The notes: generated by a model from the sequence alone, not told the origin. A DNA stretch of 63,980 nt, filler included, from Octopus bimaculoides (GCF_001194135.2; 4 parts of 4 records of this genome joined end to end with filler, not necessarily neighbours in it); one strand, 5' to 3'; shown: positions 6,725 to 56,222, counted from the first letter of the whole stretch. Translations and numbers: made by a program.

Positions 6725-6810
6725 TGCAATACAACTGTTTCAAGCGGCTCTGTTTAATTGAACAATGCAAGCACTACATCAATCTATAGACAGTGCCATC
6801 TTCAGTTGCA
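6725..6810 (-). ncRNA. Degenerate type I hammerhead ribozyme motif
   Basis: Minus strand reads tgcaa-CTGAAGA-tggc...gccgctt-GAAAC-agtt-GTA-ttgca. Stem I is a perfect 5 bp; the base of stem II is imperfect. Confidence 0.6.
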
Positions 6811-7156
6811 AGAAATATGGATTTTCAACAGACAAGATTATATTAATATAATTTTTCTCAAATATCTTATAGAGGATGAAGGAATTTCATGTTTCACTAT
6901 TGCAGCAAGGATAAGCTAAGAGAAGAACAACTACAATTTTGGAGTGGCATGGAACACAATGAGGGTCATAGGGTTGTAATTTATTTCTAATTTTTTATCT
7001 ACCTTCTTATCATCAACAAAAGATCTAAGAATAAAGAGCATTGTGAGTTGACAGCTCAGAGCTGGCTGCTGGTCATAAATAAGTATTACTAGATGTTTCT
7101 CCTAATCCTTAATTTCTTACTATGTATGTGTGTGTGTGTATGTATACATACATACA

Positions 7157-7218
<62 letters not shown>

Positions 7219-8017
7219 ATATATGTGTTCCAAAATGGAGGTGAACACCTTTCTCCATGTGATTGGGTTGAAAAATTGTTAAGACATAAGGAAATTTTCC
7301 TACTTTTCTTAACATGAAACCAATGGTAGTCTTAATTCACAAGTAAAGAAATTATATCCACCAATGCAGTGTTGAGCACTCATTTTCACTGTACAACATT
7401 TATGTATATACATGTGTGTGTGTATAATGAATGAGGGAAATGGAAAATGGAGTTCATGAGAATCTTGATTCATCACAACAATCATTTCAACCCATCTTGC
7501 ATTGGTCCCTTGCAGGTGGGATACTATACAACTGGTTGAGCTGCATCTTCTGATGCAGATGCATCTCACCAGGTGTCTAATTTCAAAGAAGATACCTTGC
7601 TAAATATACTCAATTTCACTTGGCAAGTTGTTGTTGCCTATAATGACAGGGGATGGATACAATTTCTAGGTTATAACCAGTTAACAGGTCTGGCTATAGT
7701 TCATACTGAATACATGACAGAGTAAAATAATAAAGGATAAAGAATTAAAAATGACAAAGGATAAGAACTAAAAGAGATAAAATGAAGAAAGATAGATATA
7801 CATGTGTTGACATAAACACATATACAGATGTATATACACACACACACTCCAGTGGTCTTGTGAACATACATACCCAAGCTTACACTGTATTCAATGACAT
7901 TTCCTTAATGGTGTAAGTGTGGGTATGTCCAGAAGACCACTGAGGTGTGTGTGTGCATGTAAATTTATCTATATGTGTGTGTATGTGTGTATGTATATAT
8001 CTATTTGTATATGTATG

Positions 8018-51849: not shown

Positions 51850-54800
51850 ATGCAGGTTGAATTGAAGGCTGTTGTTTGTTTATGAATTCTGCCAAATGCG
51901 AGCTTTCTTTCCAGGTACATGACGCTGCTGTCCCCTGTCCCAGGATCTCATGGGCCCATACCTCCCACATCCTCAGGGTTGGCACTCTCAATGTCGGCAC
52001 ACTGAAAGGTAGGTCTGGTGAGATTGTTGAGATGCTTGAAAGGAGATGTGTCGATATGAAGAAGTAAGGTGGGGAGGAGGTTCCACTAGGTTCCTCACAG
52101 GCAAAGAACACATGTACAAGATTTTCTGGGCAGGGAACACAGATGGGGTGGGGGGCGTGGGTATATTTCTTGCAGAGAAATGGGTGGATAAAGTAATCGA
52201 GATAGTCAGAGTATGCAACAGAATACTTAAGATTAGATTAGTGCTTCATCATGGGTTAGCAACCGTCATTTCAGCCTATGCCCCTCAGCCGGGGCTACCC
52301 AATGGGCAGAAAGAGCAATTTTATGACAACCTCTTGCAGACTACCTCATTGACGAATGACAGGGACCTTCTCTTTGTGGCTGGTGACTTCAATGGACATG
52401 TTGGGGGCTTCCATGGCGTACATGGAGGCTACAGTTTTGGTTCTCGCAATGAGAAGGGAACCAGGCTGCTGGAGTTCTGCGATGCAGATTATCTTGTGGT
52501 TTGCAATACTAACTTCAGGAAACCTGCGAGTCACCTAGTCACCTACCGTTCTGGCAGGCACACTAGCCAAATTGACTACATCCTCACCAGAAAAAGAAAA
52601 AGATGGCTGCTTATAAATGCCAAAACCTTCCCAGTCAAAGAATGTACCCCACAACATAGACTGGTACTTAGTGACTTTAAGATCAGGGCTAAATGGATGC
52701 CCAGAAGACGACCAGCATGGAGAAGAAGGGTCTCGAGCTTAAAGATCCTGCGACTGGACAGAGATTTAGAGACATATTACTCAAAGCCTTCGATGAAACA
52801 GAAGGGGATATAGCTTCACATGATGTAGAAGACAACTAGAGGCTTCTGCAGGACAACCTGCTGAGGGCCACTGACCAGATCTGTGGCTGGTGCAAAGTCC
52901 TTTCTCGACTCAAAATAACGTCGTGGTGGAACAATGTTGTTGACAGGGCTATTAGAGAAAAGAAACAGGACTGGAAGAACAGTGGTAGCAGGGAATTGTA
53001 TTAGACTGCCAGAAGGGAAGCTAGGAGACAGGTTTATTTAGCCAGAGGGGAGGCAGATAAGAAAAAATTTGCCAATGTTCTGTGCTGTGAGGACCAAAGA
53101 CTTGAGGTATTTCGTGTTGCAAGACAGTGTGTGAGAGAGAATCGTGATGTCGTGGGAGAGAAATGTGTCCGCATGGATGATGGTATGCTTGCACTAAACG
53201 AGGCTGCAACGAGAGAGGTTTGGAGACGCCACTACGAAAGATTGCTCAATAAAGAGAATGAATGGGAGAAAGAGAGTCTGCCGAATGTCGACCCAACAGA
53301 GGGACCAGCTATCTGAATTGACAGTACCATGGTAGACAAAGCAATTAAGAGTATGAAGACAGGGAAATCCCCCGGCCCATCAGGAATTACCACAGAGATG
53401 CTAAAAATATTTGGCAGTGTCGGCTATAGCCTAGTCACCCATATAGTTAACCAGGTGATACATGAAGGAGTCATACCCAATGACTGGTGTAGCAGCACCA
53501 TAGTCAACTGCTACAAATGTAAAGGTGACGCTTTAGATACAAATAATTACAGAGGCATCAAGCTGTTAGATCAGGTTATGAAAGTTACGGAGAGGGTCAT
53601 AGCCCAACTAATTAGGGAGAGAGTTAGTTTAGATGAGATGCAGTTTGAGTTCATGCTGGGGAAAAGCACCATTGATGCTATATTTCTGGTAAGACAGCTG
53701 CAAGAGAAATACCTAGCCAAAGATAAGCCTTTGTACCTGGCTTTCGTGATTCTTGTTTAGATAATTTTTGTATGTGGCAGATGCTCAGGAGCAATAAACA
53801 CTGAAAATGTGCAGAAAACAACTTCTGCCACATTCCAAGGAGAAAAACTAGAAGTAGTTGATAGGTTCCGCTACCTCGGTGACCAAGTCAGTAGTGGGGG
53901 ATGGTGCACTGAAAGTGTAGCTGTTAGAATAAGAATAGCCTGGGCAAAATTCAGAGAGCTCTGTAAGAACGGCCGTGCGAACTCAAAAAGGAGAAATGGT
54001 GACGAATGGTAAAACAGAGGACTCCTTTTATTTAAACGTGTCACACGGTCGAACACAAAATAATATATCGAAGATGATATACAAAATATGTTATACTATG
54101 ATAACATAGATGACCAGTAATGAAAGATCACAACCGTATAAGATGAATAACAGAGATATTTATTGTGGCATAAAAGTGTATGTCTGTGTGAGAGTGTGAA
54201 TGCGACATATAAGAACATAATCAAAGACAGGCCGTCGTACAAAGAAAAGTATGTATGTNNNNNNNNNNNNNNNNNNNNNNNNNNNNNNNNNNNNNNNNNN
54301 NNNNNNNNNNNNNNNNNNNNNNNNNNNNNNNNNNNNNNNNNNNNNNNNNNNNNNNNNNNNNNNNNNNNNNNNNNNNNNNNNNNNNNNNNNNNNNNNNNNN
54401 NNNNNNNNNNNNNNNNNNNNNNNNNNNNNNNNNNNNNNNNNNNNNNNNNNNNNNNNNNNNNNNNNNNNNNNNNNNNNNNNNNNNNNNNNNNNNNNNNNNN
54501 NNNNNNNNNNNNNNNNNNNNNNNNNNNNNNNNNNNNNNNNNNNNNNNNNNNNNNNNNNNNNNNNNNNNNNNNNNNNNNNNNNNNNNNNNNNNNNNNNNNN
54601 NNNNNNNNNNNNNNNNNNNNNNNNNNNNNNNNNNNNNNNNNNNNNNNNNNNNNNNNNNNNNNNNNNNNNNNNNNNNNNNNNNNNNNNNNNNNNNNNNNNN
54701 NNNNNNNNNNNNNNNNNNNNNNNNNNNNNNNNNNNNNNNNNNNNNNNNNNNNNNNNNNNNNNNNNNNNNNNNNNNNNNNNNNNNNNNNNNNNNNNNNNNN

Positions 54801-56102
54801 NNNNNNNNNNNNNNNNNNNNNNNNNNNNNNNNNNNNNNNNNNNNNNNNNNNNNNNNNNNNNNNNNNNNNNNNNNNNNNNNNNNNNNNNNNNNNNNNNNNN
54901 NNNNNNNNNNNNNNNNNNNNNNNNNNNNNNNNNNNNNNNNNNNNNNNNNNNNNNNNNNNNNNNNNNNNNNNNNNNNNNNNNNNNNNNNNNNNNNNNNNNN
55001 NNNNNNNNNNNNNNNNNNNNNNNNNNNNNNNNNNNNNNNNNNNNNNNNNNNNNNNNNNNNNNNNNNNNNNNNNNNNNNNNNNNNNNNNNNNNAGGTAGTT
55101 TCACTACAGCTCTTACCTCTGCTGGTGACAAAGGGCCTCTCACTCAGAGTAAAAGGCAGACTGTATGATGCATGTGTACGAACAGCCATGCTACATGGCA
55201 GTGAAACATGGGCCATGACTGCTGAGGACATGTGTAAGCTCACAAAGAATGAAGCCAGTATGCTCCGATGGATAAGTAATGTCAGTGTGCATACTTGACA
55301 GAGTGTAAGTACCTTGAGAGAAAAGTTGGACCTAAGAAGCATCAGTTGTGGTGTGCAAGAGAGACGACTGTGCTGGTATGGTCATGTGGTGAGGATAGCT
55401 GTGTGAAAAATTGCCACATCCTAGCGGTTGAGGGAACCTGTGGAAGAGGAAGACCCAGGAAGACCTGGGATGAGGTGGTGAAGCACAACCTTTGAACATT
55501 AGTCCTCACCGAGGCAATGACTAGTGACTGAGACCTTTGGAAATATGCTGTGCATGAGAAGACCCAGCAAGCCAATTGAGACCATAACCTGTTGGCCTAT
55601 GCCCACGTATGCATACCTTTCCTTCATTGGATACTAAACTCTGCTTGTGAAGACCTGTTGAGGCAAGTGAAATCGAAATCAAATCAAATTTGCAAATTCA
55701 ATGACTGGCACCCATGCTAGTGGAGCGCTAAGAGCACCATCCGAGCATGATCGCTGCGAGAGCAGCTGTCTGGCTTCTGTACCGGTGGCACGTAAAAAGC
55801 ACCATTCGAACGTGTTTGTTACCAGCATCGCTTTACTGGCACTTGTGCTGGTAACATTTGAAAAAACATTCGAGCAAGGCCGTTGCCAGTACCACCTGAC
55901 CGGCCCTCGTGCCAGTGGCATGGAAAAGCACCCAATACACTCTCGGAGTGGTTGGCGTTAGGAAGGGCATCCAGCTGTAGAAGCTCTGCCAGATCAGATT
56001 GGAGCCTGGTGCAGCCATCTGGTTCGCCAGTCCTCAGTCAAATTGTCCAATCCATGCTAGCATAGAAAGCAGACGTCAAACGATGATGATGATGATGATG
56101 AT
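51850..56102 (+). mobile_element. RTE-clade LINE: APE endonuclease, partial RT, long 3' UTR and (GAT)n tail
   Basis: LRVGTLNVGTLKG, VISAYAPQ, AGDFNGHVG, SQIDYIL and HRLV (APE). GKSPGPSGIT...NYRGIKLL...MQFEF..GKSTIDAIF..RQLQEKY (RT N-half). RT core is deleted near 53755. Later FRYLGD and LYDACVRTAMLHGSETW. Stops and frameshifts present. Confidence 0.95.
53962..55108. mobile_element. Solo-LTR-like insertion inside the RTE (mostly in an N gap)
   Basis: Starts TGTAAG, ends ACTACA, and is flanked by 4-bp direct repeat GCTC (53958-61, 55109-12). Removing it restores RTE ttcagagagctcttacctctg (FRELLPLL). Confidence 0.8.
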
Positions 56103-56187
56103 ACATGTAAATGTATGTATATATCATGCAGATATATGTTGTTTGTACAGATATGTATCAATATTTGCGTTTATATACTATGGACGT

Positions 56188-56222
56188 ATTGTACTGATAA
56201 CAGCCAGAAATCAATCTACAAT
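56188..56222 (+). ncRNA. Collapsed hammerhead remnant at the start of the right IR arm
   Basis: attgta-CTGATAA-cagcca-GAAA-tcaa-TC-tacaat. Perfect 6-bp stem I, core G->A, stem II deleted. The left arm has gaaattgatc, implying ancestral gaaatcgatc. Confidence 0.5.

What the first reader, a model, noticed from the sequence alone, without database searches (positions are those of the whole stretch)
6725..56222. Window-wide pattern: at least eight hammerhead motifs, mostly tied to inverted-repeat elements
Motifs lie at 6725(-), 8391(-), 9137(+), 11306(+), 23082(-), 32561(-), 47568(+) and 56188(+). Most have very short, often palindromic stem III (ACAGCTGT, ACATGT, ACGCGT, ACACGTGT, inferred ATCGAT). 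Minimal type I hammerheads with palindromic stem III are established features of Penelope-like elements and retrozymes, where they are thought to act as dimers. Their flanks differ, so several distinct non-autonomous families appear to be present, beside a GIY-YIG relic at 56.7-57.6 kb. Inference: a diverse ribozyme-bearing foldback retroelement population in this lineage, invisible to ORF-based annotation and possibly not catalogued.
Basis: partly seen in the sequence, partly recalled or inferred. Interest (0 to 1): 0.8.

Follow-up and report, generated by a model that had tools for sequence, protein, structure and literature searches.

The report
Octopus Penelope-element hammerhead foldbacks
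Eight hammerhead-shaped RNA motifs in this stretch of what is probably an octopus genome are real (five intact, three decayed) and sit in short repeats that are likely the tail ends or protein-less passengers of Penelope-like jumping genes, a known kind; self-cutting is predicted but was not shown.

Summary
The motifs are at the stated places. Five pass a strict type I hammerhead descriptor, against 0.07 expected in shuffles; three are decayed. Five of eight lie inside foldbacks. The host is an Octopus species (inferred). The 56.7-57.6 kb relic is a Hydra-clade Penelope-like element (PLE), and a second, missed relic lies inside the foldback at 5.8-6.6 kb. The element at 32.4-33.0 kb is the most informative. 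It is one insertion with a 12-bp target duplication, just over one copy of a 349-nt unit without an ORF, and an inverted arm that crosses the unit junction. Its family is abundant (3,763 contigs laid), and two stem I pairs show matched changes on both sides. RNA reads show no pile of ends at the cut site. This is standard PLE architecture, and a hammerhead-bearing Hydra PLE is already catalogued in O. bimaculoides (PMC8557442 supplement). Non-autonomy is supported for two or three of seven elements only. Verdict: new members of a known kind, with one useful test case for the retrozyme-PLE link.

The parts
5790..6640 (.). Each arm ends in a decayed hammerhead-like motif with a U3-A8-type core and G12 lost (about 5828-5875 minus, 6576-6625 plus).
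   Evidence: arms 5833-6094 / 6325-6618, 71% identical; alignment; the decayed motifs are my reading by eye
6088..6216 (-). Second Hydra-type GIY-YIG C-terminal relic; its inverted copy reads on plus at 6249-6398
   Evidence: tblastn E 8.6e-6 against P0007; profile i-E 1.7e-7, and 0.0035 for the inverted copy
6725..6810 (-). Hammerhead motif F: core at 6805, 5-bp stem I, long stem II, 8-nt stem III with one mismatch, predicted cut after 6730; lies outside foldback F0
   Evidence: Hydra-trained covariance model E 0.0004
8322..9290 (.). Element A: head-to-head palindrome of two ORF-less arms of 440-480 nt around a short microsatellite-like centre; no target duplication found
   Evidence: 82% identity; arm alignment and flank test; longest ATG ORF 19 aa
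8391..8475 (-). Hammerhead motif A-left: core at 8471, 8-nt palindromic stem III, predicted cut after 8395
   Evidence: model E 0.0054
9137..9220 (+). Hammerhead motif A-right: core at 9141, predicted cut after 9216
   Evidence: model E 0.013
10961..11682 (.). Element B: 16-bp AT-rich direct repeat at both ends (likely target duplication), inverted arm about 10976-11096, then sense unit 11094-11666 with 35-nt terminal redundancy (unit about 542 nt)
11306..11384 (+). Hammerhead motif B: core at 11313, bulged stem I, 9-nt stem III of the Hydra type, predicted cut after 11378
   Evidence: not among the model hits at E<=10
23082..23197 (-). Decayed hammerhead motif G: core at 23192, 8-nt palindromic stem III, broken stem I; no foldback
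   Evidence: not among the model hits
32388..32963 (.). Element C, one insertion: 12-bp target duplication (32388-32399 / 32952-32963), sense copy on minus 32760-32399 (just over one 349-nt unit), inverted arm 32758-32951 that crosses the unit junction
   Evidence: the junction also stands in DNA contigs and RNA reads
32561..32602 (-). Hammerhead motif C: core at 32597, 6-nt palindromic stem III, 3-bp stem II flanked by an unpaired C and A, predicted cut after 32567
   Evidence: matched stem I changes across family copies; model E 2
47409..47930 (.). Element D: inverted arm 47409-47479 (cut by an assembly gap), sense copy 47480 to about 47925 ending in (TA)n; no terminal redundancy seen
   Evidence: arms 100% identical over 71 nt
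47568..47637 (+). Hammerhead motif D: core at 47574, 6-bp stem I, long stem II, 6-nt palindromic stem III, predicted cut after 47631
   Evidence: model E 5.6
56188..56372 (+). Element E: decayed hammerhead motif (core at 56194, G8A, stem II lost) plus 156-nt tail ending at a microsatellite; sister copy at 51492-51667 on minus
56716..57603 (+). 5'-truncated Hydra-clade PLE relic (RT thumb end, linker, GIY-YIG endonuclease), broken by stops and frameshifts; no hammerhead recognised behind it
   Evidence: 205 phmmer hits at E<=0.001; tblastn E 8.8e-13; profile positions 481-708 of 715; no model hit at E<=10

Best explanation
The eight motifs are type I hammerhead motifs that likely belong to the terminal repeats (pLTRs) of several Penelope-like retroelement families; some copies are likely cut-down ends of coding elements, and at least two are short ORF-less units likely moved in trans by PLE proteins. 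INFERRED CYCLE: a transcript holding more than one unit is bound by a PLE reverse transcriptase/GIY-YIG protein. The protein nicks AT-rich DNA and starts copying at a site downstream of the hammerhead (in C about 170 and about 225 nt past the predicted cut site, which gives the PLE 'tail'). A second priming makes a shorter inverted copy joined head to head, and repair leaves a target duplication. The foldback is therefore a by-product of insertion. The palindromic stem III cannot fold within one motif and is predicted to pair between two motifs, so cutting would need a dimer or protein help. SHOWN HERE: the motifs, the architecture, target duplications for C and B, the unit junction in other copies of C, matched stem I changes, and PLE endonuclease relics. 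NOT SHOWN: cleavage, the partner element of each family, and whether the template is linear or circular.
For: Motif excess over shuffles. Element C: 12-bp duplication (1 of 500 random flank pairs reached 12), and the inverted arm aligns across the unit junction by about 69 nt. The junction appears in 6 listed DNA contigs of run X3 and in 8 RNA reads of X22 (table 5c; 12 rows shown, 15 not shown). Stem I pair 32598/32566 changes A-U to G-C at 45/48%, 50/51%, 60/63% and 87/84% in the four runs; pair 32602/32562 at 44/43%, 47/50%, 56/60% and 87/60%. None of the 40 variant rows shown falls in 32567-32597 (70 rows not shown). Foldback F0 joins an endonuclease end, a 3' UTR and an inverted copy in one structure. 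Of 80 Hydra-type loci fetched, 73 held the ORF end and 45 had 300 nt or more behind it; 31 of 45 carry a sense hammerhead and 1 of 45 an antisense hit. A model built on 33 of these motifs ranks 6805, 8471 and 9141 first in the window. The same architecture is described for PLEs in PMC8557442 and PMC3846280; internal RT starts in PMC11167929; non-autonomous PLEs in PMC8557442.
Against: No autonomous partner was found for any of the seven motif-bearing elements, and none matched the fetched Hydra loci in DNA apart from one 27-nt match. The Hydra-trained model scores C and D at chance level (E 2 and 5.6) and misses B, G and E, so their clade is unknown. No target duplication was found for A, F0 or G; D could not be tested; the 12-nt match for E lies in microsatellite; the B duplication is AT-rich. 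The stem I changes are matched frequencies, not changes seen on one molecule, and run X15 disagrees at 32562. The descriptor was written after I had seen the cores. No element end coincides with a predicted cut site, and RNA reads gave no pile of ends.
Confidence: 0.82

Rival explanations
1. Element C (and B) are retrozymes in the strict sense: tandem source arrays are transcribed, cut into monomers by hammerhead dimers and circularised, and the circle is read more than once round by a PLE reverse transcriptase. This differs from the best explanation in requiring cleavage and a circular template.
For: Unit size 349 nt, 40% GC, no ORF, one type I hammerhead per unit, more-than-unit insertions. 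The unit folds as a circle at -99.7 kcal/mol against -72.8 +/- 5.8 for 100 mononucleotide shuffles (weak control). Stem I pairing appears to be kept across copies. The model is proposed in PMC7229834 and 10.64898/2026.07.22.740005.
Against: No two-hammerhead tandem in the window. RNA: 755 of 12.9 million and 704 of 12.0 million reads, 77-79% running on into unlike sequence, no pile of ends; this looks like copies embedded in host transcripts. The junction stands in DNA too, so RNA junction reads prove no circle. In the anole PLE, cleavage was not needed for insertion in vitro (PMC11167929). The libraries may not retain small circles.
Confidence: 0.25
2. All copies are by-products of coding PLEs (5'-truncated ends or one-off internal deletions); none is a self-propagating non-autonomous family.
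For: In family C the 75-nt spacer upstream of the hammerhead has about ten times lower summed contig depth than hammerhead plus tail, and many reads continue into a different sequence at 32687 (74 and 64 reads), so most relatives are not the 349-nt unit. D, E, F and G hold too little upstream sequence to exclude a coding parent.
Against: The spacer is still covered far above the single-copy flank (62,000-149,000 against 57-338) and shows many variants. C and B each hold a terminally redundant ORF-less unit inside one target duplication.
Confidence: 0.15
3. The foldbacks are MITE-like DNA transposon derivatives that captured or happen to contain hammerhead-like words.
For: The window holds true mariner and hAT relics and other foldbacks without hammerheads. 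Element A is nearly symmetric.
Against: The arms in B and C are asymmetric and copy an internal part of the unit; duplications are 12-16 bp, not TA; F0 contains a PLE endonuclease end in both arms; the motifs far exceed chance.
Confidence: 0.04

Closest known systems
Minimal and variant type I hammerheads in pLTRs of PLEs (Cervera and de la Pena 2014, PMC4209133; parts 1-2 of 4 read)
   Same: Type I topology, short palindromic stem III, 4-6 bp stem I, many unrelated families per genome, mostly single motifs from truncated PLEs, pairs on opposite strands 100-700 bp apart, U3-A8 core variant.
   Different: Five of the seven elements here have long stem II inserts (41-88 nt). None of the eight has a G10.1-C11.1 pair.
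Hydra clade of C-terminal EN+ PLEs, including Hydra-1_Obim of Octopus bimaculoides (Craig et al. 2021, PMC8557442; passages, section 11, supplement parts 2, 52, 53)
   Same: Both relics match Hydra proteins. Hydra hammerheads have 8-10 nt stem III and often U.U or A-U at 10.1/11.1, as in motifs F, A, B and G. (TA)n preference. An inverted 5'-truncated copy is noted for Penelope-13_HM. The unpaired C and A flanking stem II of motif C also occur in PLE-X1_cBra of the same supplement.
   Different: By eye, neither the relics nor any window motif is the Hydra-1_Obim sequence itself. Motifs C, D and E have 6-nt stem III, unlike all 39 Hydra-type motifs collected here.
PLE insertion architecture with inverted pLTR, tail and TSD (Arkhipova et al. 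2013, PMC3846280, passages; Frangieh et al. 2024, PMC11167929, passages)
   Same: Partial tandem, head-to-head inverted copy, extension at one end only, target duplication, movement of non-coding or host DNA in trans, no RNA ends at the cut site.
   Different: In C and B the whole insert is one ORF-less unit of 349 or 542 nt; duplications are 12-16 bp against 8-10 bp in the rotifer; the two 3' ends differ by about 55 nt (C) and 120 nt (B) against 30-40 bp.
Animal non-LTR retrozymes (Cervera and de la Pena 2020, PMC7229834, passages and Discussion; Li et al. 2026 preprint 10.64898/2026.07.22.740005, parts 1-3 of 5)
   Same: ORF-less units of a few hundred bases, under 45% GC, one type I hammerhead each, dispersed monomers, proposed PLE origin and mobilisation.
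   Different: No array with two hammerheads seen here, and no abundant discrete RNA in the reads examined. The preprint sampled no mollusc (0 hits for mollus, octopus or cephalopod) and, in the parts read, argues from co-occurrence and phylogeny, not from insertion signatures.

Membership tests
PLE-type type I hammerhead | Core CUGANGA...GAAA with NUH cut site and stem I closing both ends | tested here: met
   5 of 8 intact; 3 of 8 decayed
PLE-type type I hammerhead | Short palindromic stem III suited to dimers | tested here: met
   5 perfect, 2 with one mismatch, 1 odd-length; none folds alone; perfect palindromes pair at -4.3 to -11.1 kcal/mol, the 9-nt one does not (+0.4)
PLE-type type I hammerhead | G10.1-C11.1 pair closing stem II (conserved in PMC4209133) | tested here: not met
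   U.U, G.U, A-U, C.A or A.A instead. The pair is also absent in 27 of 39 Hydra-type motifs, so it is not required in all PLE clades
PLE-type type I hammerhead | Compensatory changes within a family | tested here: inconclusive
   Family C only: two stem I pairs change on both sides at matched frequencies, linkage not shown; other families not tested
PLE-type type I hammerhead | Self-cleavage | not testable with these tools
   No pile of read ends in two raw RNA runs, about 6% of each read; not a direct test
EN+ PLE insertion | Inverted 5'-truncated copy joined head to head | tested here: met
   A, B, C, D and F0; absent in E, F, G
EN+ PLE insertion | More-than-unit (partial tandem) structure and tail | tested here: met
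   C and B only
EN+ PLE insertion | Target site duplication round the whole insert | tested here: inconclusive
   Met for C (12 bp) and probably B (16 bp, AT-rich); not found for A, F0, G, D2; D cut by a gap
EN+ PLE insertion | pLTR shared with an RT-GIY-YIG coding element | not testable with these tools
   No host genome held; shown only for F0, whose arms carry the endonuclease end
Hydra clade (relics at 56.7 kb and 6.1 kb) | CxCX5C linker, CxxC before E, CxH after N, C-terminal GIY-YIG | tested here: met
   56.7 kb relic: 2 of 3 linker Cys, CxxC-E and N-CxH present; 6.1 kb relic holds CxxC-E only, being shorter; all three motifs in 12 of the 12 longest relatives
Hydra clade (relics at 56.7 kb and 6.1 kb) | RWK and DKT motifs | not testable with these tools
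   Relics lack the N-terminal part; RW[KR] and DK[TS] present in 12 of the 12 longest relatives
Hydra clade (relics at 56.7 kb and 6.1 kb) | Hammerhead in the 3' UTR | tested here: inconclusive
   None recognised behind the 56.7 kb relic; decayed motif read by eye behind the 6.1 kb relic
Animal non-LTR retrozyme (elements C, B) | ORF-less unit of a few hundred bp with one type I hammerhead | tested here: met
   349 and about 542 nt; longest ATG ORFs 22 and 33 aa
Animal non-LTR retrozyme (elements C, B) | Tandem array with two or more hammerhead-bearing units | tested here: not met
   None in the window; elsewhere in the genome untested, since the contig pieces listed were at most about 250 nt
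Animal non-LTR retrozyme (elements C, B) | Abundant monomeric circular RNA | tested here: inconclusive
   About 59 reads per million, mostly embedded in other sequence; library type may exclude small circles
MITE / DNA-transposon foldback | Symmetric terminal inverted repeats with a transposase-type short duplication | tested here: not met
   Arms asymmetric and internal in B and C; 12-16 bp duplications

The most novel reading that the evidence does not exclude
The 349-nt unit at 32.4 kb is an octopus retrozyme that spreads in thousands of copies not as tandem arrays but as dispersed, target-duplicated single insertions, each made by a Penelope-like enzyme reading past the unit junction of a circular RNA. 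It would give insertion-level proof, in a mollusc, that retrozymes are carried by PLE proteins, plus a large natural alignment showing which hammerhead positions are under selection.
Probability: 0.27. Interest if true: 0.55.

Novelty: new member of a known kind. Interest (0 to 1): 0.3.

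Why it matters
As a class this is known: PLE hammerheads occur by the thousand in animal genomes, and one is catalogued in O. bimaculoides. The window shows how dense they are here (seven motif-bearing insertions in 60 kb) and that Rfam models miss them. The one point of wider use is element C. That PLE proteins move retrozyme-sized units is proposed in the papers read but rests there on co-occurrence and phylogeny. 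A 349-nt ORF-less hammerhead unit carrying the full PLE insertion signature, in an abundant family with two stem I haplotypes, is a ready test case for trans-mobilisation and for whether cleavage matters.

Tried and rejected
Rfam: no hammerhead family over the window or in three short stretches. Pfam: no family for four pieces of the 56.7 kb relic; a word-indexed homolog search with one piece found nothing; the word-free search did. The first alignment was too divergent for a locus scan. My first two descriptors for the Hydra loci allowed only even-length palindromes and found 3 of 46 and 5 of 48; odd-length stem III was added afterwards. I first read the T before GAAA as CpG decay and dropped this, since U at that position is normal in Hydra motifs. 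I first took the relic for a Nematis or Naiad element and dropped this after reading section 11 of PMC8557442. Free folding does not give the hammerhead fold for most motifs, and two-copy cofolding gave other duplexes: uninformative. A link between motif E and the adjacent relic, and between motif F and foldback F0, was considered and not supported. Palindromic half-motifs at 28295, 35268, 31649 and 19406 lack an intact core or stem I and were set aside. Lunse et al. (dimer cleavage of PLE hammerheads) is not held; I know it only through the review PMC6765202 (passages). Dfam and Repbase were not available. Supplements of the bioRxiv preprint and of PMC4209133 were not seen and may bear on what is catalogued.

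Full report
SETTING. The window is 33.6% GC, rich in TA/CA microsatellites, with 3,517 N. It holds mariner, hAT, LINE and other relics. The LINE endonuclease piece at 52040-52810 has its best hit in Octopus bimaculoides (78% identity over 86% of the query), with O. vulgaris and O. sinensis hits at 45-65%. The host is therefore inferred to be an Octopus species, probably O. bimaculoides. No whole genome was held.

OBSERVATION. A descriptor requiring CTGANGA, GAAA, a short stem III, an NUH site and at least 4 stem I pairs finds five motifs: cores at 6805(-), 8471(-), 9141(+), 32597(-) and 47574(+). In 300 dinucleotide shuffles in 1-kb blocks the mean was 0.07 and the maximum 1. The other three claimed motifs exist but are decayed: 11313(+), 23192(-) and 56194(+). 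Five of eight motifs, or four of seven elements, lie inside compact foldbacks that cover 9% of the window (P about 0.002; list drawn by hand). No Rfam hammerhead family matched.

ELEMENT C (32388-32963). The sense copy runs on the minus strand from 32760 to 32399 and is terminally redundant. An inverted arm (32758-32951) joins it head to head. Aligned to a doubled unit, the arm starts 31 nt past the predicted cut site and runs about 69 nt beyond the unit junction. A 12-bp direct repeat flanks the whole; 1 of 500 random flank pairs reached 12. So one integration event copied a template longer than one unit.

FAMILY OF C. I laid four runs on 32290-32762. In DNA run X3, 3,763 contigs were laid. 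Summed depth was 0.45-1.56 million over hammerhead and tail, 62,000-149,000 over the spacer 32610-32689, and 57-338 on the left flank. The tool warns that this is no copy number; thousands of copies is my inference. The junction from 32712-32718 back to 32399-32407, with about 29 letters between, is listed in six X3 contigs and eight X22 reads (12 rows shown, 15 not), which gives a unit of 349 nt. About a hundred RNA reads per run leave the element just before 32399 into mixed sequence, which marks a shared 3' end about 170 nt past the cut site. At 32687, 74 and 64 reads continue into one other sequence, so a longer relative exists; whether it codes was not testable. Two stem I pairs vary on both sides at matched frequencies: 32598/32566 (A-U to G-C) and 32602/32562 (C-G or U-A), 43-63% in three runs; X15 gave 87, 84, 87 and 60%. 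None of the 40 variant rows shown lies in 32567-32597; 70 rows were not shown. Linkage on single molecules is not shown.

RNA OF C. Runs X21 and X22 (one study, about 6% of each read) gave 755 of 12.9 million and 704 of 12.0 million reads. Both orientations were about equal, 77-79% ran on into unlike sequence, only 6 and 0 reads were 99% alike, and none lay on the left flank. No place had a pile of ends. This fits copies embedded in host transcripts and gives no support for cleavage or for a discrete RNA. Frangieh et al. also found no read ends at the site in the anole PLE, and cleavage was not needed for insertion in vitro (PMC11167929, passages).

OTHER ELEMENTS. B (10961-11682) has the same build: inverted arm, sense unit of about 542 nt with 35-nt redundancy, and a 16-bp AT-rich duplication. 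A (8322-9290) is a head-to-head palindrome of two ORF-less arms, each with a hammerhead 73-74 nt from its outer end; no duplication was found. D has a 71-nt perfect inverted arm cut by a gap. E, F and G are single fragments. D, E, F and G cannot be told from truncated ends of coding PLEs.

PLE RELICS. The C-terminal piece at 57391-57603 drew 205 phmmer hits at E<=0.001, among them full RT-GIY-YIG proteins, one named from Argonauta hians. The 12 longest relatives all carry RW[KR], DK[TS], CxCX5C, CxxC-E and N-CxH, the marks of the Hydra clade (PMC8557442 section 11). A second relic at 6216-6088(-) lies inside the foldback at 5790-6640, and its inverted copy reads on the plus strand. Both arms end in what I read by eye as a decayed hammerhead with a U3-A8 core. 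This structure links endonuclease, 3' UTR and inverted copy directly.

REFERENCE SET. A metagenome scan gave 80 Hydra-type loci, the best of 260 confirmed. Of these, 73 held the ORF end and 45 had at least 300 nt behind it; 31 of 45 had a sense hammerhead and 1 of 45 an antisense hit. Over all 39 loci with a hit the core lay 75-345 nt behind the ORF, stem III was 8-10 nt, and position 10.1/11.1 was U.U in 22, G-C in 12, A-U in 4 and G.U in 1 (descriptor adjusted). An alignment of 33 motifs showed 94% paired cells and 93 double changes against 23 in shuffles. A model from it ranked F and the two A motifs first in the window (E 0.0004, 0.0054, 0.013; rough calibration), scored C and D at chance, and missed B, E and G. 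So F, A and probably B and G are Hydra-like, while C, D and E, with 6-nt stem III, likely belong to another PLE clade that I could not name.

MECHANISM. Most likely a PLE protein acting in trans nicks AT-rich DNA and copies a more-than-unit transcript from start sites downstream of the hammerhead; a second priming gives the inverted arm, and repair gives the duplication. The architecture is shown here; the enzymology is taken from PMC11167929 and PMC3846280. The stem III words cannot fold alone, and the perfect palindromes pair between copies at -4.3 to -11.1 kcal/mol, so dimer-dependent cutting is predicted, as in PMC4209133. No element end falls on a cut site, so cleavage has no visible part in making these copies.

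COMPARISON. Cervera and de la Pena 2014 describe thousands of such motifs per animal genome, in many families, mostly single and sometimes on opposite strands 100-700 bp apart. Craig et al. 2021 describe the inverted copy and tail as common, mention non-autonomous PLEs in Chlamydomonas, and list Hydra-1_Obim with its hammerhead for O. bimaculoides. Retrozymes are proposed to be moved by PLEs (PMC7229834; preprint 10.64898/2026.07.22.740005). C works like a retrozyme monomer but fails the tandem-array test within the window, so I file it as a non-autonomous PLE derivative. Searches for octopus or cephalopod with hammerhead, Penelope, Neptune or non-autonomous and for retrozyme or non-autonomous PLE insertion signatures listed no paper whose title or opening abstract points to these families; subscription journals, Dfam and Repbase were not covered.

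VERDICT. Observation confirmed; interpretation partly supported; new members of a known kind; interest 0.3.

Noticed in passing
window 10991(-), 11526(+), 47920(+), 48582(+), 51518(-), 56346(+), 58756(-): The word CCCTT followed within 4 A/T bases by ATATA occurs 7 times (0.44 expected, maximum 3 in 300 shuffles; motif chosen after seeing it), each time at an end of an arm or element of B, D, D2, E or a B-like fragment. Read on the other strand it resembles a TATA box followed by GGG, and by eye the 5' end of Hydra-1_Obim. It may be a shared end or promoter signal of (TA)n-targeted PLE families; it was absent from all 80 metagenome loci.
   Followed up: partly
window 32598-32625: Summed depth of family C falls about five-fold in DNA contigs and two-fold in RNA reads about 12 nt upstream of the hammerhead core. 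This could be clustered 5' truncation or subfamilies with other upstream sequence; the loose ends suggest both.
   Followed up: partly
window 47958-48586: Foldback D2 with a PLE-like build (one direct and two inverted segments), directly behind element D, with no recognisable hammerhead.
   Followed up: partly
window 22694-22707: A second copy of the 3' half of motif G (14 identical bases) faces it on the plus strand about 390 nt away, with a SINE-like repeat between and no core upstream.
   Followed up: partly
window 58745-58862 and 15360-15454: Dispersed fragments of the B arm and of the D tail, without hammerheads.
   Followed up: partly
L001-L049, 60-100 nt behind the hammerhead: Many of the Hydra-type loci printed share a short motif ending in GAGCACT behind the hammerhead, sometimes twice; by eye it is absent from the window elements. 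Possibly a protein-binding or RT start signal.
   Followed up: no
window 45744-46754 (+): Open frame of 337 aa rich in N, G, P and A with seven 48-bp repeats; no Pfam family and no homolog found. Probably a host exon.
   Followed up: partly
window 8015-8076 (+): tRNA-like match above the Rfam gathering score (33.2 bits), followed by a common repeat; probably a SINE head.
   Followed up: no
window 52040-53757, 27522-28363, 38983-41567, 9605-10400, 49209-49658, 1183-1692: Relics of a LINE (AP endonuclease, RT), a second RT-like element, an LTR-type element, two mariner-type transposases and a hAT transposase; identities partly from Pfam, partly by eye.
   Followed up: no
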